A DNA stretch of 64,000 nt from the IMG/VR virus record IMGVR_UViG_3300028833_000110, positions 1-64,000 of that record; one strand, written 5' to 3'. This document shows, one piece after another, positions 13,987 to 61,560 of this stretch. Made by a program: the position numbers and the translations under genes. A model generated the notes under the pieces. It saw only the letters and a program-made list of their open reading frames with translations, made no database searches and was not told where the DNA came from. The stretch comes from a virus. Lineage: Duplodnaviria; Caudoviricetes. Position 1 is the first letter of the stretch; every line of letters starts with the position of its first letter.

Positions 13987-14538
13987 TTAATATTTTCCAC
14001 TATTTGCTGCGTTTGTTATTTTAGTATTGAGGGCTTTGGCATTCTTTCCATTACCGAAGAGTGCGCTATTCATTGCTTTCGCCTCCTTACTTTGCTGTCC
14101 AAGAAGCTGACTCCTCCAACCTGATTTAGCAGTCATTAGTGTTTTAAAGTCGTTAGAACCAAGCTTACCTCCTTTAGGGGCCGTCTTTTGAATACCTTGA
14201 ACTAATAAATTTGCATCCTTCATTACTTCTTTGCCTTCCCCCTTTAGTGAACTAATAAGACTAGTATTGCCACCTAAGTTAGTCACTCTTTTAGCCATTT
14301 CAGGACCCTGCATATATTGTCCAGCCTTTCTTAATTGGCGAGCAGTTTTTGCAGCTTTATTTCTAACAAACTGATTCCTTAGTGATCCTAGACTGGGAAA
14401 AGCAAATTCTCTCTGGGCATATTCGTATCCTTCACAAAATGCACGTTCCAAGAGTTCATCCAAGTCTTCATTTCCCGTACTATAAAGCTTCTCATCATAG
14501 TACTCATCATAATCACTGTACAATTTAGTTATTTTCAT
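13987..14538 (-). CDS. Acidic-leader/cationic-core protein (LYSTGNxxLDELLERAFCEGYEYAQREF family)
   Basis: About 45-aa conserved leader followed by a unique basic core. Confidence 0.7.
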   Translation of the reverse strand: MKITKLYSDYDEYYDEKLYSTGNEDLDELLERAFCEGYEYAQREFAFPSLGSLRNQFVRNKAAKTARQLRKAGQYMQGPEMAKRVTNLGGNTSLISSLKGEGKEVMKDANLLVQGIQKTAPKGGKLGSNDFKTLMTAKSGWRSQLLGQQSKEAKAMNSALFGNGKNAKALNTKITNAANSGKY

Positions 14539-14550
14539 TATTTATCATTC

Positions 14551-14595
14551 AACATACAGGGAAAATTTAACTTACTACCCCCCCCCCTGTATGTT
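14551..14595 (-). repeat. 5'-leader hairpin element C with poly-G tract
   Basis: aacatacaggg...ccctgtatgtt, 12 nt upstream of the ATG; near-identical copies at 53017 and 57355. Confidence 0.65.
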
Positions 14596-14632
14596 ATTTT
14601 TTTTTATAAAGGGAGAGATAATATTGTTTTAG

Positions 14633-14684: not shown

Positions 14685-15095
14685 TTAATTATTGCTATTA
14701 TTCTTTTTATTCTTTTTGTGTTTTTTAATAGCAGCCGTAGTACCAACAGCAGCAGCAACAGGGAGAGCAATCATAGCACCTTTACCAGCCATATTGATTC
14801 TTTTGGCTCTTTTGGCATTTTTCTCAACGAGTTCCCTTATCTTATCCAGGTTTTCATATTTTTCGGGATTTTTAGTGACATCCTTCATTGTTCTCTTTAT
14901 GGTTCTTGCACCAACTCGTTCTATGTCACCTAAGGTTTCTCCTCTAAACCAATCTCCAATCTTACCAAACTCTCTTTGTGCATATTCATATCCATCACAA
15001 AAAGCTCTTTCCATCAATTCATCTAATTCATCATTACCAGTACTATATAATCTCTCTTCTTCCTGATAATTACTGTACAATCTTTCTATTTTCAT
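14685..15095 (-). CDS. Acidic-leader/cationic-core protein
   Basis: MKIERLYSNYQEEERLYSTGNDELDELMERAFCDGYEYAQREF leader; C-terminal hydrophobic helix and Lys tail. Confidence 0.7.
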   Translation of the reverse strand: MKIERLYSNYQEEERLYSTGNDELDELMERAFCDGYEYAQREFGKIGDWFRGETLGDIERVGARTIKRTMKDVTKNPEKYENLDKIRELVEKNAKRAKRINMAGKGAMIALPVAAAVGTTAAIKKHKKNKKNNSNN

Positions 15096-15106
15096 TATTT
15101 CTTGTT

Positions 15107-15239: not shown

Positions 15240-15935
15240 TTATTCACTTTTCTTCTTCTTTCCTGTTTTAGCAGCAATAGTAGCACCAGCAGCAACTACA
15301 GGAGCTGCAGCAGCAGTATATCTTAGGGCTTTACCACCAACCTTAGCACGGTTCAGGGCTTTTTCAGCTGCCTTAGTTGCTTTCTTTGCAGCCTCAATTG
15401 CCTTAGTTGGATCATTCATTGTACCACCTTCAGTAGCAAATTTCATAGCATTATTAGCCTTTTCTAAGTTTTCTTTGGATCTTTTAATACTACGTTGGAA
15501 TGGTTTTTCTGAAGCATCAACTATTTTTCTATAAGCATTTTTTATTTTACTTTCCTGACCCTCTAATTTATCAGCTCTCATTAGAACTTTCTCAGGGTTT
15601 GCCATTGTTCCACCCTCTCCTGCAAAATTAGCTTCATTTCTAGCTTTTTCTGCACGGGATCTCAAAACTTTCTTCCCAAGTTTCTTTCCACCATAAGCGG
15701 CACCTACACCAGCACCTGCACCTACGGTACCACCAATACCAGCTCTAAGTCCTGTACGTCCTTTCTTCTCTTCTTCTTCCTCTTCGGCAAATTCTCTTTG
15801 TGCATATTCATAACCTTCACAAAAAGCTCTTTCCAGAAGTTCATCTAATTCATCATTACCAGTGCTATAAAGTTTTTCCTCTTCATAATCACTTTCGCTG
15901 TAAAATCTTTCAGCAAATTCTCTTCCGTTAATCAT
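15240..15935 (-). CDS. Acidic-leader/cationic-core protein with glycine zipper
   Basis: Same leader; internal duplication FAxEGGTMxxP. Confidence 0.7.
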   Translation of the reverse strand: MINGREFAERFYSESDYEEEKLYSTGNDELDELLERAFCEGYEYAQREFAEEEEEEKKGRTGLRAGIGGTVGAGAGVGAAYGGKKLGKKVLRSRAEKARNEANFAGEGGTMANPEKVLMRADKLEGQESKIKNAYRKIVDASEKPFQRSIKRSKENLEKANNAMKFATEGGTMNDPTKAIEAAKKATKAAEKALNRAKVGGKALRYTAAAAPVVAAGATIAAKTGKKKKSE

Positions 15936-29277: not shown

Positions 29278-29360
29278 GCTCTGGTGATGGAATGGTAGAC
29301 ATGAGGGACTTAAAATCCCTTGCCTGTAAAGGCGTGTGGGTTCAACTCCCACCCAGAGTA
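29278..29360 (+). tRNA. tRNA-Leu(TAA)
   Basis: gctctgg/ccagagt acceptor; aggga-ct-TAA-aa-tccct; long variable arm; GTTCAA T-loop. Confidence 0.92.
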
Positions 29361-35816: not shown

Positions 35817-35890
35817 CGCGGGGTGGACAGGAGAGGCTCCTGCTCGGTCTCATAAGCCGAATGACGCTGGTTCGAATCCAGCCCCCGCTA
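35817..35890 (+). tRNA. tRNA-Met(CAT), initiator-like
   Basis: cgcgggg acceptor with C1:U72 mismatch; tcggt-ct-CAT-aa-gccga; GTTCGAATC. Confidence 0.85.
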
Positions 35891-35907
35891 CTAATAAAAT
35901 AACAAAT

Positions 35908-36123
35908 ATGAAAAAATTGTTATTAATTTTAACGTTATTCGTTTGTTGTGGATGTAGTAGTAATACAGAACAACAGCAGAGTGAAAAAGTAATTGACATT
36001 TCCAACGACCAGCGGTTTGAGGTTGTCAGAATAGGCAATCATCAATATATCTTATATCGAACTGGATATAAGGGTGGAATATGTCACTATCAAGACTGTG
36101 ATTATTGTCATGGTCGACGTTAA
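35908..36123 (+). CDS. Small putative lipoprotein
   Basis: MKKLLLILTLFVCCGC signal peptide and lipobox. Confidence 0.55.
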   Translation: MKKLLLILTLFVCCGCSSNTEQQQSEKVIDISNDQRFEVVRIGNHQYILYRTGYKGGICHYQDCDYCHGRR

Positions 36124-36199
36124 AAAAAGTGCATCCCTCATCAATAGGGAAGGCAATCGAGGGTCCTATAGGCAAGATCTTATGGGTCCCTTGCTATTC

Positions 36200-36284
36200 G
36201 GAAAGATGGCAGAGCGGTTGAATGCGGCGCTCTTGAAAAGCGTTGACCTGCGAGGGTCCGGGGGTTCGAATCCCTCTCTTTCCG
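36200..36284 (+). tRNA. tRNA-Ser(TGA)
   Basis: ggaaaga/tctttcc acceptor; gcgct-ct-TGA-aa-agcgt; long variable arm. Confidence 0.92.
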
Positions 36285-36295
36285 CAAATATAAAT

Positions 36296-36369
36296 TGTTC
36301 TGTAGGCCAGTTGGATAGACCGTCAGATTTTGGTTCTGAATGTCGCTGGTTCGAGTCCAGCCAGAACAA
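36296..36369 (+). tRNA. tRNA-Gln(TTG)
   Basis: tgttctg/cagaaca acceptor; tcaga-tt-TTG-gt-tctga. Confidence 0.9.
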
Positions 36370-36376
36370 CAACTAT

Positions 36377-36459
36377 GACTATGTGCGCGAGTGGCTGAAA
36401 CGGGCGGTCTGCAAAACCGTTAGGGAAACCTCACGTTGGTTCGAATCCAACCATAGTCA
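36377..36459 (+). tRNA. tRNA with GCA (Cys) anticodon, class II body
   Basis: gactatg/catagtc acceptor; gcggt-ct-GCA-aa-accgt; long variable arm agggaaacct; A73. Confidence 0.8.
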
Positions 36460-36468
36460 CAGAAAGTT

Positions 36469-36594
36469 GGTGGCGTGAAGCAGATAGGATGTGCTACCAG
36501 AAGAATTAGTAGTCGTTTGAAGGTTGCTTGAGGATAAGTTTCAACCAAGACGAAAAGGATCTGGACTACGGTAGTTCGAATCTACCCACCACCA
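36469..36594 (+). ncRNA. tRNA-like RNA with 58-nt insert replacing the anticodon loop
   Basis: ggtggcg/caccacc acceptor, agca/tgct D-stem, ccaga/tctgg stem, ggtag-ttcgaat-ctacc T-arm. Confidence 0.7.
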
Positions 36595-36604
36595 CAACAA
36601 TTAT

Positions 36605-36678
36605 CGGGTATTAGCGAAGTTGGTATCGCGCTTGGTTTGGGACCAAGAGATCGCAGGTTCGAGTCTCTGCATACCCGA
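36605..36678 (+). tRNA. tRNA-Pro(TGG)
   Basis: cgggtat/atacccg acceptor; cttgg-tt-TGG-ga-ccaag; one extra base in the T-arm. Confidence 0.85.
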
Positions 36679-36859
36679 CAATCTTCAACAAATCATGTTT
36701 TTTGTTTTAATAAATCCTTTCATACTTTGGTCATAATTTGTTTGTATTTGGAAGGTTATTAAAGCATATGTACATTGTTTTCTTCAGACACTGGGATAGT
36801 CTTCGGGCTATTCTGGTGTTTTTTTTACCGTCTCAAAAACCCTTTAAAACTTTATATAT

Positions 36860-36956
36860 GACATAGTTTTCAAGAAACCGGCCCACACACCTAAACACTT
36901 GATAGCCCTGAGGTGTAGAAACCTGAGTAAAAAGGAGGGCCGGTTTATTTTTTTTT
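36860..36956 (+). ncRNA. Candidate small structured RNA
   Basis: Follows the TTTATATATG promoter core; aaaccggccc/gggccggttt closing stem; ends in a T-run. Confidence 0.4.
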
Positions 36957-37135
36957 CGTTCTAAAAGCATATTAAATCTCTATATATAGAGATTCATTCA
37001 TTATTTGGGTTTTTATGTTAATAATGAAAAGCGTCGTGATGACGCTTTTTTTATTATTTTTCTCTTCTAAACCCCTAAAATCCTTATATATGAAATAAAA
37101 AAAAATCATAACACAAATAGAAAAACTGATGAGAT

Positions 37136-37210
37136 GGTCCGTTCGTCTAGTTGGCCTAGGACGTAAGATTTTCATTCTTAAAATCGCGGGTTCGAATCCC
37201 GCACGGACTA
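37136..37210 (+). tRNA. tRNA-Glu(TTC)
   Basis: ggtccgt/acggact acceptor; taaga-tt-TTC-at-tctta. Confidence 0.9.
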
Positions 37211-37214
37211 CAAC

Positions 37215-37286
37215 GCTTTGGTAGCTCAAAGGCAGAGCGATTGACTGTTAATCAATAGGTTGGGATATCGTAATTCCCCCAAAGCG
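37215..37286 (+). tRNA. tRNA-Asn(GTT), atypical T-loop
   Basis: gctttgg/ccaaagc acceptor; attga-ct-GTT-aa-tcaat; T-loop ATCGTAA. Confidence 0.8.
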
Positions 37287-42566: not shown

Positions 42567-43373
42567 TTATTTCCCGCTCTTATTTTTAAATTCATAGTAA
42601 GATTTTTTTAGTTTAGTATCATAAGAATTTTCCTTGTATCCGCTTCCATTATATCTTCTAGCGAATTCAGCCCAGTTTTTTGCCTGAAGATATGGAATGA
42701 GGCCTGTATTTTTCATAAATCTAATACCCAATACAAACTGAGAATATTCAGATTGTTCCATTAGTTTCACAAATTCATTAATACTAGAACAACCGCACTT
42801 AGAAAAATTAACTCCCATAATTTGAAACATTCCCCAGCTTGTACTTTGGTCTGCTATTTCTTTGTCTATATATTTTCGGGCGGCTTCTAATCTGTTCCAT
42901 TCTCTTTCTCCGCCCTTATATAGACTTTTATTCCAGACCTTAGATAATAAAGCTGGATATTTTTTTAGTAGTTCTTCTATATTCCCTTTTCCAGCCTTTT
43001 TTAGTAGATTATATGCATAGTGAGCCTCATATAGAACTTTAGGATGACCAGATGCGAGAAAACCAGAGCTTCCCCCAGTTTCTACTTTAACCACTGCCAT
43101 AAGTACTTCGGGTTCTACTCCTAACATTTTTCCGAAAGTGATATAATCTTCTTTTAATACCTTTCCTGAGTCAGACTTTTTTTTATCAATAATAAGAGAT
43201 GTCCAAGTATTAAATCCAACTACACCATCAGGATCCAAACCGTTTGTTTTTTGATATCCTCTAATAGTATTATCTAGATCCGAATCAAAGACATTTCTTT
43301 CTTTAACTCCCAAGAGATTACATAATATTTTTACGTCATCTCCATTACTACCTAATTTTATAGTACTATACAT
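42567..43373 (-). CDS. Endolysin: peptidoglycan-binding domain plus N-acetylmuramidase (DUF3380-type)
   Basis: GSNGDDVK...YQ...GLDPDGVVG..TW; AVVKVETGG, LYEAH, STSWGMFQIMG, FARRYNG..Y...YDTKL. Confidence 0.9.
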   Translation of the reverse strand: MYSTIKLGSNGDDVKILCNLLGVKERNVFDSDLDNTIRGYQKTNGLDPDGVVGFNTWTSLIIDKKKSDSGKVLKEDYITFGKMLGVEPEVLMAVVKVETGGSSGFLASGHPKVLYEAHYAYNLLKKAGKGNIEELLKKYPALLSKVWNKSLYKGGEREWNRLEAARKYIDKEIADQSTSWGMFQIMGVNFSKCGCSSINEFVKLMEQSEYSQFVLGIRFMKNTGLIPYLQAKNWAEFARRYNGSGYKENSYDTKLKKSYYEFKNKSGK

Positions 43374-51994: not shown

Positions 51995-52996
51995 TTATTG
52001 AATTGGATGTATACGACTTTCATATTTACTCCAAACGGGAGTGGCAGATTTGTATGCACTTACACTCTCTGTTGGTACATAAATTGGACAACTACCTGTA
52101 TTAGTAAACACATCTTCACCGAGCCCATCATCTTCTATTGTGGGTGGATTTATTGCTTCACATACTATTGATTCTAGATTAGTACAACCAGTGAATGCAC
52201 AATATCCTATTTCTGTGACTAAACTAGGTATTCTTATTGAAGTTAAACTAGTACACCCATAACACATACTCGATGGTATTGAAGTAACAGAATTAGGGAT
52301 ATTAATAGAGGTTAAGTTAGTACACCCCATAAATACATCCTCCCCAAAACTAGTAACAGAATTAGGAATATTAATAGAGGTTAAACTAACACAATCCTTG
52401 AATACATCCTCCCCAAAACTAGTAACAGAATTAGGAATATTAATAGAAGTTAAATTGGTGCACCCATGAAAAGTCTCATCATCTATTTTTGTATTAGTAA
52501 TGGAATCTGGAATATTAATAGAAGTTAGTTTTTTGCAGAATCGAAAAACTCCAAAACCAATTGAAGTAACAGAATTAGGAATATTAATAGAGGTTAAATT
52601 CGAACAATATTCAAACGAACAATCACCAATACTAGTAACAGAACTTGGAATATTAATAGAAGTTAATCTAGTACACTGAGAGAATACACTGCCTCCAATA
52701 CTAGTAATGGAATCTGGAATGACAACTGAAACTAATTCTTCATTCCAAGAAAATATTTCTGGTATTGATGTTAAAGCTTCTTTAAACTTAATAATACCTT
52801 TACCGTTATTATAGGTATTACTTTTTATTATCTCTGATAGATCAGTAAAGTTTATTGCATTTCCACTAACACTAGTATACCAAATTTCATCATTAGGAGG
52901 TAGTATTATTTGGTTTTTTTTTGTTTTATTTAATATACTCCTAATTCTTAATAGCCAATCTTTTTCGCTATTGTTTAAATAAAGATTCTTATTCAT
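51995..52996 (-). CDS. BspA-type leucine-rich repeat (LRR_5) protein
   Basis: About 8 repeats of CxxLTSINIPNSVTSIGxxxF. Confidence 0.9.
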   Translation of the reverse strand: MNKNLYLNNSEKDWLLRIRSILNKTKKNQIILPPNDEIWYTSVSGNAINFTDLSEIIKSNTYNNGKGIIKFKEALTSIPEIFSWNEELVSVVIPDSITSIGGSVFSQCTRLTSINIPSSVTSIGDCSFEYCSNLTSINIPNSVTSIGFGVFRFCKKLTSINIPDSITNTKIDDETFHGCTNLTSINIPNSVTSFGEDVFKDCVSLTSINIPNSVTSFGEDVFMGCTNLTSINIPNSVTSIPSSMCYGCTSLTSIRIPSLVTEIGYCAFTGCTNLESIVCEAINPPTIEDDGLGEDVFTNTGSCPIYVPTESVSAYKSATPVWSKYESRIHPIQ

Positions 52997-53016
52997 ATTT
53001 ATTTTATTATACGTTT

Positions 53017-53059
53017 AACATACAGGGAAAGTTTACTTACTATCCCCCTCCTGTATGTT
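53017..53059 (-). repeat. 5'-leader hairpin element C
   Basis: Copy of 14551..14595, upstream of the LRR gene. Confidence 0.6.
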
Positions 53060-53174
53060 ATTTTTTTTAATGGGAGATAGATTTTTATTTATGCGTGGTG
53101 AGACTTGGTGCAAAAATTCTAGTCTTGGGTTATGGTTCTAAGACTAAAACTCCTGCACCAAATATTCCCCGCGC

Positions 53175-55368
53175 TTAGAACAGATTATTTAACATGCCCT
53201 GGAATATTTTTTGGGTTTCTTCTAGGGCGGATGATGTTTGAGAGGAGAATGATTGAATAGTTTTGCTTACTCCACCATTCATTCCTAGTTCTTGATATTT
53301 AGAATAGTGATAGTAGCAATTGAAGAGAGCACCAGAAACAGCATCAGCAAGGTCTTTACTCCCCTCTAGCTTATTCCCTTCCATTCCCGCATGATCAAAC
53401 TCATAACAACTTGAAACTAAGGGGTGATCTATTTTACAATGCTCTCCGTTAACTCCATTATAAGTCACTAATAGCTCACTACATTCTCGTAAAAGTATGT
53501 TGATATAAGGAAGCTCTAATCTTTCTGAATTTACTATATTCTTAAAGACGTTATAAGCCTCCATAGTTTTATCTACGGAAAGGGGTCTGTAGGGAATTCC
53601 ATCTCTTTCAGCATTTTGTAAGATTCCGGCACTAGCAAAAGAGTCAGCACTAAACTCGACGATATATCCATTTTTCACTAAGTCTTGTAAAAATTGATAG
53701 AGGTGGTCTAGTGATGTAGCCTGTCCCTTCTTTCTGGAAACAACAAATGCTAATGGAACTTTGAATTTGGGAAGTGTATATTCTCCTACTTGTTTTTCCC
53801 CATCATAATAACATAAAGCTATCCCAGTTTTATCCTTCTTCAATCCTATATCATAATGTACATATAGTGAAGTGCCTCGTGGAATTCTGTAGATCATATT
53901 TTCGACATGAGAATATATACTATCTTCCTTATCATAAAAATCGACTATAATTTCCTCGGGACTGTAATTCTTTAGGGTTGAGCAGTTTATGAGATGAGAT
54001 ATATTACCGTTGAAGAATCTCTCATCGCCGCTATAAGATACTCCCGCTAAGTCTCTAAGATTTCGGATTGGGTCGGCCAGGAATTTAAATTTGGCAGAGA
54101 TGGGAACATTAATCACTCTGTCAGGATCTAATCCAGATTTCTCCAGATCTTCGGAGTCTTCGATCACGCGGGGACCTGTAATATTATCTCCTTTATAGAA
54201 CCTAAAAGTCTTACCATTAGACTCAAGGTATAGTGGATCATAACGTATATCCCATTGTGCAAATCTACAGCGGTATAATTCCTCTGGGGGAACGAGAGAT
54301 TCAAACTTAGTAACAGCAATATTATCCGGGTCCCTCGCTGAGCTGTCACAAACTACATGTCCATAAACAAATCTTTTATCAGCAAAACGAGAATCATAAC
54401 GAGTCACAACTTCTGAAGCTCGAGCAGCCCCCTCCGAGGACCTCCAGAAGCCCAGCTCTGATAAACAGGCATATATCAAATTTCTTATTTTATAATAATT
54501 TTTTATTATATTAGACTATATCTTGTATTAAAACAGTATATACATAGTCTTTGAACTACTTTAAATTAAAGTAGCTGCTGATTTAATATATTAATTATTT
54601 CCAGCAATTCTTATACTATGAGCAAACTTTTTACTCCGATGACATGACTCCCGCTAGAAGGACCCGAGGGGATAAAACGAATGGGTGGTTTATGATAAGG
54701 ACTTCTAAAATAAGGACTTGTATCAAACACTAAGTCAACATAATTTTTGAAGTCTCTTTTGGCAGTCTCGAAAGAATTGTGAAAGAAAGCCATTCCTAGT
54801 TTACTGTTCGCAATCCCAAGAGACTTAAATACATTTGTACAGCAATCCAATCTATGGTAAGTATAGAGTGCTAGGATCTTACTGATAGTTGATTTTCCAA
54901 GTCCACAGTTTTATAATATTTCTATTATGATAAGACTATATCTTCTTTCGTATATACACATAGTCGTTGAATAAGATACATAATTATCTTACTGCTAGTT
55001 TAAATCGGAATTTGTTTCTAGCAATTCTTATATAGGCCGCTGGACTTTCTGTTAACGGCACCCCCAAGAGAAATCCAGGGGTATTTTGTAGTAATTGAAT
55101 TTGGATAAATCTTTTCTAATTCAGCATACCATGGATCAAATAATGCTTTTCCATGATTAAATAAGTTATCATCTCCCATAAAATAATCATCACATATAAA
55201 TCTTCTTATAGTCACTGGTTTATGATCCATCCCCAGTAATTTACACGCTGCTAATATTTTCTCCTCATTAGAAAGTTTATTATATTCAGATTCAAGTATG
55301 TTTTGGTTTATATCTGATGAAATAGAAAGAGTAGGATCATCACCTATATTTATATTACTGTTTTTCAT
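53175..55368 (-). CDS. terL: Terminase large subunit, three exons (55368-55055, 54905-54633, 54483-53175; 631 aa spliced)
   Basis: Splicing restores Walker A GGAVGLGKST and Walker B-like LIYACLSE; nuclease motifs HYDIGLKKDKTG and SKDLADA. Confidence 0.85.
54484..54632 (-). mobile_element. Miniature group I intron 2 (149 nt)
   Basis: Exon GAGU pairs with IGS GCUC; P10 AAGUUU/AAAUUU; P AAUUGCUGGAAA, Q AAUCAGCAG, R UUCAAAGACUA, S AAGAUAUAGUC; terminal G. Confidence 0.88.
54906..55054 (-). mobile_element. Miniature group I intron 1 (149 nt)
   Basis: Exon GCCGU pairs with IGS GCGGC; P10 AAGUCCA/UGGACUU; P AAUUGCUAGAAA, Q AACUAGCAG, R UUCAACGACUA, S AAGAUAUAGUC; P9 GAAA loop; terminal G. Confidence 0.9.
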
Positions 55369-56662
55369 ATTCTTCTACTTTTTTAGGTTCTATTATGGGA
55401 ATGATGGAGCTAATGTCTTCCCCATATATCAATATCTTTTGTATTATGTCGAAAATATCATTAAATTCTTTTATATTGTATGGTATAACGATTAATTTTA
55501 TCGATTTCCTCTCACAATACTCTTTTATAGCATCGTCTCGTAATAATTGTTTAGAATAGTCTTCAATAGACCTTTGAAAGTCGTGATCCCAGAAATAATG
55601 TTGAGATCCATTATATTCAATTATATAAGTAGATCCTTTATAGTTTTCTAAGTAAAAATCAACATAAACCCTTTTTTGAACATTAACTAATTCAAACATT
55701 TCCTCACTATCAATCCGAAACTGAGGTGTATATTCAATTCCTAAATTATCTAATACATGAGCTACATGTTTCTCTCCTCTAGACTTAACTCGATCGAAGT
55801 TAAATATGCCTCGTAATAAATTTCCTGCTGGTACAGAGTATTCCTTACCTGTTCTACGATCTATTACTATTACATTAGTATCTCTTCCAACACGACTATT
55901 GGATCTTAAATAAACCGCCTTTGATAAATCTATTATATCTCCGTAAATTTCCCTAACCCTTTCTTCAAACTCTTCTTGCGATATAGCATTCTGTCTTCCT
56001 ACGGATAATCTAGCACAATTTGGGCATTGTCCAGTTCCATAATAATGCTCTCCGGGCATCTGTTCAAAAAACTCTCCACAAGTAAGACACTGAAGACGTA
56101 CTTTAGTATGATTATTAACATACTTTGTTTCACTATATCCAAATCTACCTGGAAACTTCTCCTTTGATCTTCTTATGAATTCTTCAGTGTCTACATATTG
56201 TTCTGTTTTTTCTTTAGATAACATTCCCGCACATTGCCTGTTTTCATCTAATACTACTACAAGATCATGATAACTTGTTTCCCACTCTCCTATTACTTTA
56301 TTTGTTTTAGTAGATACCTCATCTACATAAATAGGTACATTAGTCTTTTTGTTTCTTATAATATCTGGAACATTACTGAAGTCATAATTAAAAATTCTTT
56401 TATTCTCAATTTCCCTAGAGTTATAATATCCTTCTATAAAATCCTCTTTCAGGATTATACCTTTTCCAATAGACCATCTTAATCCATCTTCTTTTATGTG
56501 TTTGAGAACAAATTGTTTAGTATGTCTGTGTTTATCAGTGGCATTAGAAAACCACCTTAATCTCTTCTCTACTCTCTCCACACTAACTCCTAATTCTTTA
56601 GCTACACCTTCGACCGTGTACTTTTCTTCAAATGGAAATTCTTCTCTTTTACCGTTTTGCAT
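55355..56662 (-). CDS. Free-standing homing endonuclease-like protein, paralog of 12355..13662
   Basis: FIRRSKEKF..RFGYS..KY...CLTC...CPNC; SRGE...DFYL...IEYNGSQHY...RD. Confidence 0.75.
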   Translation of the reverse strand: MQNGKREEFPFEEKYTVEGVAKELGVSVERVEKRLRWFSNATDKHRHTKQFVLKHIKEDGLRWSIGKGIILKEDFIEGYYNSREIENKRIFNYDFSNVPDIIRNKKTNVPIYVDEVSTKTNKVIGEWETSYHDLVVVLDENRQCAGMLSKEKTEQYVDTEEFIRRSKEKFPGRFGYSETKYVNNHTKVRLQCLTCGEFFEQMPGEHYYGTGQCPNCARLSVGRQNAISQEEFEERVREIYGDIIDLSKAVYLRSNSRVGRDTNVIVIDRRTGKEYSVPAGNLLRGIFNFDRVKSRGEKHVAHVLDNLGIEYTPQFRIDSEEMFELVNVQKRVYVDFYLENYKGSTYIIEYNGSQHYFWDHDFQRSIEDYSKQLLRDDAIKEYCERKSIKLIVIPYNIKEFNDIFDIIQKILIYGEDISSIIPIIEPKKVEEYEKQ

Positions 56663-56898: not shown

Positions 56899-57342
56899 TT
56901 ACGCTTTTATTCCTTTCTTGATTAGACTTTTTGGATTAAGCTTTTTTTTCAATTTCCATTTTCTATCTTCATTCAATAGTCTTAAACCGTTATAATCATT
57001 AGAACTCTTTAGTTTATTGTACCTAGCATCATAATTATAAGTGTTTTTTTTCACGTAATCTTTATCAAATCTTTCCTGTCTTACTCCTCTTTCTGGTGTA
57101 AACTCTATATCTCCACGATCTCGTGATCTAGCATTATGTATAGCAAGATCTTGCATATTACGCAAATCACCTCTTTTCGTCTTATTATCAATAGGCTCTC
57201 TTAGTTTATCTAAAAAACTTGAATCCACCGGCATACCCGCATTTTCGTGTTCTTTTATATCATCCTCTATAAATTCTTTAAGGTAATCTATGTTTTTCTT
57301 ACCCTTCTTACGAGCAAATTCTTTTTGTCTTAGTATTATCAT
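56899..57342 (-). CDS. Leader-bearing basic protein
   Basis: MIILRQKEFA; preceded by hairpin element C (57355..57398). Confidence 0.6.
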   Translation of the reverse strand: MIILRQKEFARKKGKKNIDYLKEFIEDDIKEHENAGMPVDSSFLDKLREPIDNKTKRGDLRNMQDLAIHNARSRDRGDIEFTPERGVRQERFDKDYVKKNTYNYDARYNKLKSSNDYNGLRLLNEDRKWKLKKKLNPKSLIKKGIKA

Positions 57343-57512
57343 TATTTATCATTCAACATACAGGGAAAATTTAACTTACTACCCCCCCCCTATATGTTAT
57401 TTTTTTTACAAATGGAAGGTAGTTGATTTATTATTTATTATTAATCCCACAACAAACTAGGGATGAAAATTAAGTGATAATCATTTCAATATTACTTTCT
57501 ACTCTGATTATT

Positions 57513-59825: not shown

Positions 59826-60434
59826 TTATTTCTTTTTACCATATTTTTTAGCATACTCTTCTTCAGACATATCACCCTCAACAACTTTAATCATGTCTCT
59901 ATTCTTTTCAAATCTCTTAGCTGCCTTTGAGTTGGGATGTTTCTCTACATGGTTGCTCTCAAGATGAGCAATACCACCCCCAAGTCCAGCGGCTCCGGCA
60001 CCTATAGCAGTACCAATAGCGGCTGACTTCAATCGGCTATTACTAGGGAATCTTGTCACACCTCCATAAAGCCCCAATGTAGCAGCACTAGCGGGAAGGT
60101 GACGTTTCATTTGTTCGTTGATCCCTTCTTTTCTCACATCAGGATCCTCACTATTACGTTTTTTATAAGAATCGTAGGTAAAATATCCAGTGTGTCCTTT
60201 TTGATGTGATTTATCCCAAGATTTGATTTCCTGTCTATCTCCCCATTTTACTCCCAACTCCTTAAGTCTTTTATCTCTTTCTTTTCTCCTTTTCCTATCT
60301 TCTTTACCAAACTCCTTTTGTGCATATTCATAGCCATCACAAAAAGCTCTTTCAAGTAATTCATCTAATTCATCATTACCAGTACTATATAATCTTTCTT
60401 CCTGATAATTACTGTATAATCTTTCTATTTTCAT
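59826..60434 (-). CDS. Acidic-leader/cationic-core protein with glycine zipper
   Basis: Leader nearly identical to that of 14685..15095, including the upstream DNA. Confidence 0.7.
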   Translation of the reverse strand: MKIERLYSNYQEERLYSTGNDELDELLERAFCDGYEYAQKEFGKEDRKRRKERDKRLKELGVKWGDRQEIKSWDKSHQKGHTGYFTYDSYKKRNSEDPDVRKEGINEQMKRHLPASAATLGLYGGVTRFPSNSRLKSAAIGTAIGAGAAGLGGGIAHLESNHVEKHPNSKAAKRFEKNRDMIKVVEGDMSEEEYAKKYGKKK

Positions 60435-60522
60435 TTATTTCTCGTTGCTATAGGAGAAATTGTTTTTATCTTATCACCCCCCCCCTATAGCTTTGTTTTT
60501 ATAAAGGGGAGATAATATTGTT

Positions 60523-61560
60523 TTAGTTATTTTTATTTTGCTCTTCCATCACTTTTTTCAGAGCTTCATTTTCTCTCTTTTTTCTTTTTGCAGCTAATCT
60601 TTTATAAGCTACCTTTGTTCCTATAGAAGTAGCTGCAAGTGGGATGGCTGCGGCGGCTATTTTTGGACCATTCTTCAGGTGTTTTAGATATTTAATCTCA
60701 GATTTCGGAAGTTCCCCTTCATAATACTTCAGGGCTTCTTTACTCATCTTCTGAGCTTTTTCACTCATCTTATCTCGATAATTCTCGAATTCTTTTGAGG
60801 TCCATTTTTCCATAAGATCTTCAGTACTTATTTTGGGATAACGCTCTTTCAATATCTCTTTTTCTGATTTTATTATATTTCGGACAGGAATAACAGCAGA
60901 ACCTATGGCTCCTATTTTTGTTCCATACGAAATCCCACGTAAAGCCTTTTCCTTTTTTTCTTCCTTATCGTAATTATAATTATTATCTTTCTCTTTTTTC
61001 GAATTTGTTAGCTTCTTAAGACCTCCATAAATAGTACCGGCGGCTAATGAACCTATGGCTAAATTTTTCCTAAACTTTTTATTGGATTTTAATTTATCCT
61101 CTAATTTCTTCTTTTCTTTCTCAACTATTTCTCCAGTTTTTTGTTTCCCAGTTCTGTACTTAGATAAGGCCTCGTCTTTTATTCTTTTTATTTCCTCATT
61201 TTCTACTTTGGTATCACCACCATTAGATTTTATTTTTGAGGACTTTAAAAAATCTGTAACGCTATCTGGTAGATCTCCAGTCATTATTCGTGCCTCTTGA
61301 ATTTTAGCTCTTCGATGTGGTATAAGTTTTTCTTTGACATATTCATCAAAGTTATCTTTCGCTCGTTTTACTTTTTCATTAGAGACTTTTTTGCTCTTAC
61401 GGTCATCTATGCGACTAATTGCTTGAGATGTCCCAATTCCACTAAGAGCTACAACTCCACCACCAATAAGAGCTGATCTGTCTTTCTTATCTTTCTTTTC
61501 TTTATCAGAAAAGCTTTTAGTTCTTAGTATTTTCATAATTTTAATATAATTTTTATGCAC
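60523..61560 (-). CDS. Leader-bearing Lys-rich protein with four hydrophobic helices
   Basis: Likely starts at MKILRTKSFS (9th codon of the called ORF). Confidence 0.6.
   Translation of the reverse strand: MHKNYIKIMKILRTKSFSDKEKKDKKDRSALIGGGVVALSGIGTSQAISRIDDRKSKKVSNEKVKRAKDNFDEYVKEKLIPHRRAKIQEARIMTGDLPDSVTDFLKSSKIKSNGGDTKVENEEIKRIKDEALSKYRTGKQKTGEIVEKEKKKLEDKLKSNKKFRKNLAIGSLAAGTIYGGLKKLTNSKKEKDNNYNYDKEEKKEKALRGISYGTKIGAIGSAVIPVRNIIKSEKEILKERYPKISTEDLMEKWTSKEFENYRDKMSEKAQKMSKEALKYYEGELPKSEIKYLKHLKNGPKIAAAAIPLAATSIGTKVAYKRLAAKRKKRENEALKKVMEEQNKNN

What the first reader, a model, noticed from the sequence alone, without database searches (positions are those of the whole stretch)
54484..55054. 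Two 149-nt miniature group I introns split the terminase in Walker A and just before Walker B
Seen: removing 55054-54906 and 54632-54484 gives a continuous 631-aa TerL (GGAV|GLGKST; VIGV|NLIYACLSE). Each intron follows an exon U, ends in G, has its own matching guide (P1 with the G-U pair plus P10) and carries canonical P, Q, R and S. P2 is absent, P5 is a tiny hairpin, and P8 is reduced to C-GAAA-G in intron 1 and about 2 bp in intron 2. Both are exactly 149 nt despite divergent sequences. Known: the compact Azoarcus intron is about 200 nt. Inference: these are near-minimal group I ribozymes that must still splice because TerL is essential, perhaps with protein help.
Basis: partly seen in the sequence, partly recalled or inferred. 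Interest (0 to 1): 0.88.

Follow-up and report, generated by a model that had tools for sequence, protein, structure and literature searches.

The report
Two tiny introns split phage terminase
The DNA-packaging (large terminase) gene of an uncultured sheep-gut jumbo phage is interrupted by two real, very small (149-base) group I introns with no protein gene, but such introns are already known in gut and Staphylococcus jumbo phages, so this is a compact new member and not a new kind of element.

Summary
On the minus strand, removing 55054-54906 and 54632-54484 (149 nt each) joins three frames into a stop-free 631-aa TerL. Five intron-less homologues at 35-72% identity align without a break across both junctions. 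Both inserts hit Rfam RF00028 (E 1.9e-8 and 2.3e-6), but below the gathering score. Each follows an exon U, ends in G, and has its own guide sequence forming P1 (with a U·G pair) and a 6-bp P10. Both fold into P3-P4-P5-P6-P7-P9. P2 is absent and P8 is vestigial.

They are not unique. A covariance model built from relatives scores them 96 and 93 bits. Members of the same family interrupt terL and other genes in 360-400 kb gut 'Jug' phages (PMC12880540: 2513 introns, mean about 206 nt, terL splicing seen in metatranscriptomes). They also interrupt genes of MarsHill-like Staphylococcus jumbo phages. P8-less cores occur in more than 113 IMG/VR stretches, and complete introns of 140 and 145 nt exist elsewhere.

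This scan has already reported 127-194-nt introns of this kind on other DNA. Splicing in this phage is inferred, not shown: no RNA contig bridges a junction. Verdict: a real, compact new member of a known kind, of moderate interest.

The parts
55055..55368 (-). terL exon 1 (ATG at 55368-55366; 104 codons plus 2 nt; ends ...GGGGGTGCCGT)
   Evidence: It is colinear with the intron-less L001, L002 and L055.
54906..55054 (-). Intron 1, a 149-nt ORF-less group I intron inside the Walker A codons (GT|T of Val before GLGKST)
   Evidence: RF00028 32.7 bits, E 2.3e-6. Model R1 95.7 bits. nhmmer E 1.9e-24. The MFE fold recovers P4/P5, P6, P7 and P9.
55036..55046 (-). Intron 1 internal guide sequence. 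AGUCCA pairs with the 3' exon UGGACU (P10, 6 bp). GCGGC pairs with the 5' exon GCCGU (P1, ending in U·G).
   Evidence: Read from the sequence.
54934..54965 (-). Intron 1 catalytic centre: P7 5' strand GACUAU, P3 3' strand UAUAUA, the vestigial P8 (C-GAAA-G), J8/7 AAGAU and P7 3' strand AUAGUC
   Evidence: The R and S elements are identical to the RF00028 consensus.
54633..54905 (-). terL exon 2 (273 nt; GLGKST...SHVIG plus 2 nt of Val)
54484..54632 (-). Intron 2, a 149-nt ORF-less group I intron 2 codons upstream of LIYACLSE (the Walker B-like hhhh-SE motif)
   Evidence: RF00028 39.6 bits, E 1.9e-8. R1 93 bits. nhmmer E 6.5e-21. Fold z-score -2.7.
54620..54629 (-). Intron 2 internal guide sequence. 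AAGUUU pairs with the 3' exon AAAUUU (P10, 6 bp with one G·U). GCUC pairs with the 5' exon GAGU (P1, ending in U·G).
   Evidence: Read from the sequence.
53175..54483 (-). terL exon 3 (435 codons plus stop; rest of the ATPase and the nuclease domain)
   Evidence: tblastn finds 246 phage records, most of them annotated as large terminase, with E down to 4e-30.
55355..56662 (-). Free-standing endonuclease gene (zinc finger plus VSR/PD-(D/E)xK-like C-terminal domain). Its last 14 nt overlap the terL start.
   Evidence: phrog_559 'HNH endonuclease', E 2.5e-35. DUF4379 is weak. In Bastillevirinae the same PHROG family sits inside terL introns (PMC11878797).

Best explanation
The two inserts are genuine ORF-less group I introns of a compact family that has spread through jumbo phages. 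terL is transcribed as one pre-mRNA, probably together with the overlapping upstream endonuclease gene. In each intron the internal guide sequence pairs with the last 4-5 exon nucleotides (P1, with the splice-site U opposite G). An exogenous guanosine bound in P7 attacks the 5' splice site. The guide then aligns the 3' exon (P10), the terminal G enters the P7 pocket, and the exons are ligated. The result is a 631-aa TerL with an intact Walker A and an intact hhhh-SE Walker B-like motif. The ribozyme is trimmed to P1/P10, P3, P4, a 4-bp P5, an 8-9-bp P6, P7 and a 6-7-bp P9. P2 is lost and P8 is reduced to a short linker. What is shown here: the anatomy, family membership, covariation, reading-frame restoration, colinearity with intron-less alleles and sporadic presence/absence. 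What is inferred: actual splicing in this phage, whether it happens without a protein helper, and spread by free-standing homing endonucleases such as the phrog_559 gene next door.
For: RF00028 hits both inserts on the coding strand only, with E 1.9e-8 and 2.3e-6. Each intron has a different guide sequence that matches its own exons for both P1 and P10. P3 differs between introns but stays complementary within each: UAUAUA/UAUAUA, AUAGUAUA/UAUACUGU, UUAUAC/GUAUAA, UACCU/AGGUA. Model R1 scores the two introns 95.7 and 93 bits. Across 17 distinct family members 84.6% of cells are paired, against 67% when shuffled (0 of 500 shuffles as high). The covariation score is 0.379, against 0.131 shuffled and at most 0.141 when partners are slid. 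Every pair of P6, P8 and P9 shows changes on both sides. The spliced ORF is 631 aa with no stop. The intron-less homologues L001 (72%), L002 and L055 (69%), and L056 and L057 (about 35%) are colinear across both junctions. Jug-type relatives carry a 171-nt family member at exactly the same nucleotide of Walker A, present in some genomes and absent in others. Both introns are present in contigs from independent studies (X4, X3), and one visible intron 2 difference (C62 to U in P6) turns a C-G pair into U·G. In published work, Jug phage terL introns are spliced in gut metatranscriptomes (PMC12880540).
Against: Both Rfam scores fall below the curated gathering threshold. P8 is normally counted as part of the conserved core and is missing here, so autonomous catalysis is uncertain. 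P1 of intron 2 has only 4 bp. All helices are A/U-rich and weak; intron 1 has a fold z-score of only -1.55. No RNA contig spans a junction in the two metatranscriptomes examined. The covariation alignment was fitted to the model, and P3 is mis-registered in it (51% paired).
Confidence: 0.88

Rival explanations
1. The inserts are group I introns that have lost self-splicing ability because P2 and P8 are gone. They are removed only with help from a phage or host protein (maturase-like or chaperone), or from the other intron on the same transcript.
For: P8 is vestigial in both introns and the helices are short and A/U-rich. In Bastillevirinae some phage introns splice in vivo but not in vitro (PMC11878797). 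Only 37 of 76 Jug introns had RNA support (PMC12880540).
Against: P8-less cores of the same family occur in more than 113 IMG/VR stretches from many samples and in a Staphylococcus phage. That spread across very different hosts argues against dependence on one specific host factor. No maturase-like ORF is associated with them. This is a sub-case of the best explanation, not an alternative identity.
Confidence: 0.35
2. The inserts are dead mobile-element remnants. Either terL is a pseudogene in a defective phage, or TerL is made as three separate polypeptides that assemble.
For: Three separate ORFs are what gene callers see. No junction-spanning RNA was found.
Against: The Walker A P-loop is cut in mid-motif, and exons 2 and 3 have no ATG near their 5' ends. 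Both inserts keep exact exon-specific P1 and P10 guides and a complete P3-P7 core, and removing them restores the frame. The interrupted allele persists with about 2% divergence in independent samples. Homologous Jug terL introns are spliced (PMC12880540).
Confidence: 0.04
3. The inserts are an assembly artefact or chimera in the metagenomic contig.
For: The record is a metagenome-assembled fragment, 24% complete by CheckV.
Against: Independent Logan contigs from other studies carry the same arrangement: X4, 20.5 kb, colinear over 53113-55357, and X3 over 54374-55164. Related phages have the same kind of insert at the same site.
Confidence: 0.01

Closest known systems
Small ORF-less group I introns of gut 'Jug' jumbo phages (Sci Adv 2026, PMC12880540; bioRxiv 10.1101/2025.08.10.669567)
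   Same: Same RNA family: R1 scores 87-129 bits for the Jug copies and 93-96 bits for the window. Same host gene; terL is split into 2-3 pieces. One intron sits at the identical Walker A nucleotide. They are ORF-less, sit among many free-standing endonuclease genes and vary in presence/absence. Splicing of terL is documented there by RNA reads.
   Different: The window phage is not a Jug phage. Its TerL is 38% identical to theirs, and its synteny is with L001. Its source is sheep gut. Its introns are 149 nt against a published mean of about 206 nt, and against 171-191 nt for the Jug copies measured here. P8 is lost. Intron 2 sits at a site 17 nt from one Jug site and 7 nt from another.
Introns of MarsHill-like Staphylococcus jumbo phages (MarsHill, Machias, Madawaska; bioRxiv 10.1101/2020.12.14.422802)
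   Same: These are the only blastn matches in 50,697 phage records, at 71-78% over the core, and they lie in CDSs annotated as joined across introns. R1 scores them 62-78 bits, and one Machias intron (L053:1454-1619) also lacks P8.
   Different: Different phage lineage and host. The host genes seen here are the virion RNA polymerase and the DNA polymerase. The paper predicts exon joins by protein alignment and gives no ribozyme structures.
Azoarcus pre-tRNA-Ile group I intron (205 nt; size cited in PMC2709566)
   Same: A compact, ORF-less bacterial-type group I ribozyme with a short P1 and a GAAA L9.
   Different: Azoarcus keeps P2 and P8, which clamp together through a tetraloop-receptor contact, is G/C-rich and is proven to self-splice. 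The window introns are 56 nt shorter, lack both helices and are about 70-78% A+U.
terL group I introns of Bastillevirinae and Twort-like phages (PMC11878797)
   Same: Group I introns interrupt terL, sometimes two or three per gene. phrog_559 (VSR-like) endonucleases are associated with them.
   Different: Those introns average 802 nt, with about 350 nt of non-coding ribozyme, and carry the endonuclease inside the intron. Here the endonuclease gene is free-standing upstream and the introns have no ORF.
Degenerate 56-81-nt putative group I introns of fungal rDNA (PaSSU, 67 nt; PMC3160393)
   Same: Naturally miniaturised introns reported to use the group I pathway.
   Different: Those keep only P1, P7 and P10 and lack the P3-P6 core. 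The window introns keep the whole core except P8.

Membership tests
Group I intron (Rfam RF00028) | 5' splice site follows a U that forms a U·G pair with the internal guide sequence (P1) | tested here: met
   Intron 1: exon GCCGU with guide GCGGC. Intron 2: exon GAGU with guide GCUC.
Group I intron (Rfam RF00028) | Intron ends in G (omega G) and the guide also pairs with the 3' exon (P10) | tested here: met
   Both introns end in G. P10 is UGGACU/AGUCCA in intron 1 and AAAUUU/AAGUUU in intron 2, 6 bp each.
Group I intron (Rfam RF00028) | Covariance-model match at or above the curated gathering score (50 bits) | tested here: not met
   39.6 and 32.7 bits. Both are significant by E-value (1.9e-8 and 2.3e-6 in 951 nt) but below the cut-off, and both are missed in default scans. 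The shortfall comes from the missing P2 and P8 and the tiny P5, P6 and P9.
Group I intron (Rfam RF00028) | Conserved core P3, P4, P6 and P7 with the P/Q/R/S elements and the P3/P7 pseudoknot | tested here: met
   The P4 strands UGCUAG/CUAGCA and UGCUGG/UCAGCA, the R element UUCAAC(A)GACUA and the S element AAGAUAUAGUC match the consensus. P3 is complementary in every member. Covariation was counted.
Group I intron (Rfam RF00028) | P8 helix in the P3-P9 domain | tested here: not met
   Between P3' and J8/7 there are 6 nt (CGAAAG) in intron 1 and about 10 nt (at most 2 bp) in intron 2. The same loss is seen in L025:3817-4000, in Machias L053:1454-1619 and in more than 113 IMG/VR stretches.
Group I intron (Rfam RF00028) | Guanosine-dependent self-splicing | not testable with these tools
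   Needs an in vitro splicing assay. The RNA contigs did not bridge the junctions.
Jug/MarsHill-type compact phage group I intron family | Significant match to a family covariance model or profile built from relatives, and sequence similarity to annotated members | tested here: met
   R1 scores 95.7 and 93 bits, with the caveat that the two window introns are themselves among the 9 seed sequences of A2, from which R1 and the nhmmer profile were built. nhmmer gives E 1.9e-24 and 6.5e-21. Independent of the seed, blastn finds MarsHill-like phage introns.
Large terminase subunit (TerL) | Walker A P-loop, Walker B-type motif with a catalytic Glu, and a C-terminal nuclease domain homologous to known TerL | tested here: met
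   GLGKST and LIYACLSE are restored after joining. Exon 3 hits 246 phage records, mostly annotated TerL. The intact homologue L001 aligns over 612 aa with Rhizobium phage TM39 TerL, which lies next to the portal gene, at E 9e-41.
Large terminase subunit (TerL) | Match to a curated TerL profile (Pfam or PHROG) or to a solved TerL structure | tested here: not met
   No Pfam, PHROG or PDB sequence hit for the exons or for the intact L001 homologue. The AlphaFold model was too poor to search with (pLDDT 38.8). This is a divergent TerL clade.
Collaborative homing (ORF-less intron plus free-standing endonuclease, as in cyanophage S-PM2 psbA/F-CphI; recalled from knowledge) | An adjacent free-standing endonuclease that cuts intron-less alleles, with the intron disrupting its own site | tested here: inconclusive
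   A phrog_559 endonuclease gene overlaps the terL start. However, the intron-less relative L001 also has a related endonuclease gene in the same slot. Cleavage specificity is not testable here.

The most novel reading that the evidence does not exclude
P2-less and P8-less group I introns of about 140-150 nt form a widespread, structurally undescribed subclass in phages that self-splices without any protein. That would put the lower size limit of a natural ribozyme with the canonical P3-P7 core about 55-65 nt below the Azoarcus intron, and would show that P8 is dispensable.
Probability: 0.4. Interest if true: 0.6.

Novelty: new member of a known kind. Interest (0 to 1): 0.36.

Why it matters
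For annotation, gene callers and default Rfam scans miss these introns. They then report terL, a standard phylogenetic marker and an essential gene, as three fragments. Knowing the junctions restores a 631-aa TerL for this sheep-gut jumbo phage lineage.

For RNA biology, the pair adds two clean examples to a growing set of natural group I ribozymes that are much smaller than the textbook 205-nt Azoarcus intron and have dispensed with P2 and P8. If they self-splice, they are attractive minimal scaffolds for structural work or for circular-RNA engineering.

For phage evolution, three different insertion sites lie within 24 nt just upstream of Walker B, and one shared site lies in Walker A, across TerLs only 38% identical. 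This shows how strongly conserved ATPase codons attract mobile introns.

Tried and rejected
- **RNA evidence.** Two metatranscriptome runs hold small parts of terL. X19 has 100%-identical contigs at 53366-53534 and 55290-55440. No contig reaches either junction, so splicing is neither shown nor refuted.
- **Default Rfam and genome-wide RF00028 scans.** These found nothing. This is a sensitivity problem, not evidence of absence, because a focused scan finds both introns.
- **More copies in the phage's own 95.8-kb record.** nhmmer and R1 find only the two terL introns. The weak R1 hit at 42815-42951 (19.8 bits, E 0.54) lies inside an intact lysozyme-like ORF, has no RF00028 signal, and was rejected as chance.
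- **TerL identity by Pfam, PHROG or PDB sequence search.** No hits.
- **AlphaFold model of the intact L001 homologue from a 5-sequence alignment.** Mean pLDDT was 38.8, too poor for a fold search, so none was run.
- **MAFFT alignment as a basis for covariation.** P3, P5 and P8 were mis-registered. I used a covariance-model realignment instead (A4), where P3 is still partly mis-registered. P3 complementarity was therefore checked intron by intron.
- **Literature on natural group I introns lacking P8, and on 'the smallest group I intron'.** Nothing relevant was found in the held library. The Jug paper's intron tables were not available as text.
- **Metagenome scan with exon 2.** It returned only three loci, all with intron-less terL, so no extra intron-bearing alleles were available for compensatory-change analysis.
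- **Correlation between the upstream endonuclease and intron presence.** It does not hold cleanly. Intron-less L001 also has such a gene, and Jug loci vary.
Full report
**What is there**

The window is the first 64 kb of a 95.8-kb IMG/VR virus record that CheckV rates 24% complete, so the phage is probably a jumbo phage of roughly 400 kb. The record came from a sheep gut metagenome.

On the minus strand, three stop-bounded frames (55018-55374, 54611-54910, 53175-54515) carry pieces of one protein. Reading the DNA gives this layout:

| Part | Coordinates | Notes |
|---|---|---|
| Exon 1 | 55368-55055 | ends ...GCCGT |
| Intron 1 | 55054-54906 | 149 nt |
| Exon 2 | 54905-54633 | starts TGGACTT |
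| Intron 2 | 54632-54484 | 149 nt |
| Exon 3 | 54483-53175 | starts AAATTTG |

Joining the exons gives 1896 nt, a 631-aa protein with no internal stop. It reads ...SLGGAV|GLGKSTIS... and ...SHVIGV|NLIYACLSE... at the joins.

**Is the host gene terL?**

- Exon 3 finds 246 phage records by tblastn, most annotated as large terminase, with E down to 4e-30.
- The intact 628-aa homologue in L001 aligns end to end (612 aa, E 9e-41) with the annotated TerL of Rhizobium phage TM39, which sits next to the portal gene. Its GQGKST aligns with the Walker A and its VFSTILSE with the hhhh-SE motif.
- No Pfam, PHROG or PDB sequence match exists, and a shallow-alignment AlphaFold model was unusable.
- TerL identity therefore rests on homology to annotated terminases, the motifs and the literature on the related Jug phages.

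**Are the inserts introns?**

- Five homologues have an uninterrupted gene that is colinear, without gaps, across both junctions: L001 (72%), L002 and L055 (69%), and L056 and L057 (about 35%). For example, L001 reads SFSGCVGSGKSS and GAVLGTQLVFSTISE.
- A focused Rfam scan hits RF00028 at both inserts, on the coding strand only: 39.6 bits with E 1.9e-8, and 32.7 bits with E 2.3e-6. Both are below the 50-bit gathering score, which is why the default window scan, the permissive whole-window scan and the genome search all missed them.

*Anatomy*

| Element | Intron 1 | Intron 2 |
|---|---|---|
| P1 (exon / guide) | GCCGU / GCGGC, 5 bp ending in U·G | GAGU / GCUC, 4 bp ending in U·G |
| P10 (3' exon / guide) | UGGACU / AGUCCA, 6 bp | AAAUUU / AAGUUU, 6 bp |
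| P3 | UAUAUA / UAUAUA | AUAGUAUA / UAUACUGU |
| P4 | UGCUAG / CUAGCA | UGCUGG / UCAGCA |
| P5 | 4 bp, UCCG loop | 4 bp |
| P6 | 8 bp | 9 bp |
| P7 | GACUAU / AUAGUC | GACUAU / AUAGUC |
| P9 | 6 bp, GAAA loop | 7-8 bp |
| 3' end | G | G |
| P8 region | CGAAAG | about 10 nt, at most 2 bp |

In each intron the P10 part of the guide lies directly upstream of the P1 part. There is no P2 in either intron. MFE folding recovers P4/P5, P6, P7 and P9 by itself, with z-scores of -1.55 and -2.72.

**Family and covariation**

- The 38%-identical terL relatives L003-L050 lie on 200-400 kb gut contigs. They match the published 'Jug' phages in habitat, in genome size (contigs up to about 400 kb) and in having terL split by group I introns. 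They carry inserts at the same places, present in some genomes and absent in others.
- One of these inserts is a 171-nt intron at exactly the same Walker A nucleotide (GCCAU|...G|C), with its own matching guide sequence.
- A profile of nine such introns finds 130 copies in the 50 loci, each at most 9.3 kb, but only the two terL introns in the window's own 95.8 kb.
- A covariance model (R1) scores the window introns 95.7 and 93 bits.
- On a model-guided alignment of 17 distinct members, 84.6% of cells are paired against 67% in shuffles (0 of 500 as high). The covariation score is 0.379 against 0.131 shuffled and at most 0.141 when partners are slid. P4 is 100% paired, every pair of P6, P8 and P9 changes on both sides, and P7 is invariant.
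- That alignment is fitted to the model, and P3 is mis-registered in it. Checked intron by intron, P3 is complementary in each of the six introns the script completed, using five different sequences.
- The two window introns are only about 63% identical to each other. Each is closer to a Jug intron in another gene (65-69%), so they are not recent copies of one another and the identical length is a coincidence.

**How unusual are they?**

- Group I introns in terL are well known (PMC11878797).
- The Jug phage paper (PMC12880540) reports 2513 group I introns in 136 of 139 genomes, with a mean length of about 206 nt. It reports terL split into two or three pieces, many free-standing endonucleases, and metatranscriptome reads that join the terL exons precisely.
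- The window phage is a relative of the Jug phages, not a member. It is syntenic with L001 at 75-96% nucleotide identity and shares little DNA with the Jug loci.
- In 50,697 deposited phage genomes, the only blastn matches to the introns are the intron-split RNA polymerase and DNA polymerase genes of MarsHill-like Staphylococcus jumbo phages.
- Three introns in the Machias beta-prime gene score 67-78 bits with R1, and one of them also lacks P8.
Most are Jug phages, but there are also contigs from many other samples. R1 confirms members among them.
- One contig (L138) has complete 140- and 145-nt introns in a DNA-polymerase-like gene, with correct P1, P10 and frame.
- Earlier follow-ups in this scan reported 127-194-nt introns of this kind in Staphylococcus jumbo phages.
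- So 149 nt is the low end of a known, widespread family and is not a record. It is 56 nt shorter than the natural Azoarcus intron (205 nt, PMC2709566). It keeps far more of the core than the 67-nt fungal intron described as the smallest with group I activity (PMC3160393).
- I found no paper that describes the P8-less architecture as such. That is the one structurally new aspect.

**Mechanism and mobility**

- The most likely mechanism is ordinary group I splicing, as set out under the best explanation.
- Functionality is supported by the exon-specific guides and by the essential, mid-motif position.
- It is also supported by persistence of the interrupted allele in independent samples at about 2% divergence (X4, X3), with a C-to-U change in P6 that keeps pairing.
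- The wide distribution of the P8-less design adds further support.
- Whether a protein helper is needed is open.
- Immediately upstream, overlapping the terL start by 14 nt, lies a 435-aa zinc-finger/VSR-like endonuclease gene of PHROG 559. In Bastillevirinae that family sits inside terL introns.
- This suggests endonuclease-driven spread (collaborative homing), but the intron-less relative L001 has a related gene in the same slot, so the link is unproven.
- Among relatives, three insertion sites lie within 24 nt just upstream of the Walker B-like motif: Jug site 2a, the window site 17 nt downstream of it, and Jug site 2b a further 7 nt downstream. This marks the region as an insertion hot spot.

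**Verdict**

These are new, compact members of a known kind. Interest is moderate, mainly as clean examples of natural P2- and P8-less group I ribozymes. Splicing itself still needs an RNA or biochemical test.

Noticed in passing
window 55355-56662 (-): A free-standing endonuclease gene (phrog_559, with a treble-clef zinc finger and a VSR/PD-(D/E)xK-like C-terminus) overlaps the terL start codon by 14 nt. The intron-less relative L001 has a different 467-aa member of the same kind in the same slot (L001:2004-3407).
   Followed up: partly
window 14403-14615, 14960-15100, 15781-15911, 52996-53092, 57328-57442, 60300-60539: A repeated intergenic element of about 100-240 nt; all copies hit L001:1016-1254 by blastn. 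The copy at 52996-53092 lies just downstream of terL.
   Followed up: no
L005:3772-3991 and L025:3610-3789: The second terL insert of Jug-type phages (about 220 nt in L005) is a divergent group I intron. It follows an exon U, ends in G and scores only 27 bits with R1. It sits 17 nt upstream of the window's intron 2 site. L025-type genomes add a third, 184-nt intron 7 nt downstream of that site.
   Followed up: partly
L138:4754-4893 and L138:4495-4639 (minus strand): Two complete introns of the same family, 140 and 145 nt, interrupt a DNA-polymerase-like gene on an unrelated IMG/VR contig. The 145-nt intron has a compensatory change in P7 (GACUGU/ACAGUC). Both are smaller than the window's introns.
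   Followed up: partly
L005:257-442: A family member sits near the 3' end of a gene upstream of Jug terL. It uses the same GCCGU/GCGGC P1 as window intron 1 and leaves a last exon of only 12 codons.
   Followed up: no
window 35817-37286 and 29278-29360: Eight tRNA genes, seven of them in a cluster, as is usual for jumbo phages.
   Followed up: no
window 51995-53014 (-): The gene downstream of terL encodes a BspA-type leucine-rich-repeat protein with repeated ...LTSINIPNSVTSIG... units.
   Followed up: no
L132 (IMGVR_UViG_GVMAG-M-3300022752-15_000001): The P8-less core pattern also matched a contig labelled as a giant-virus MAG. R1 returned no hit there at E 0.001 or better, so its status is unknown.
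   Followed up: partly
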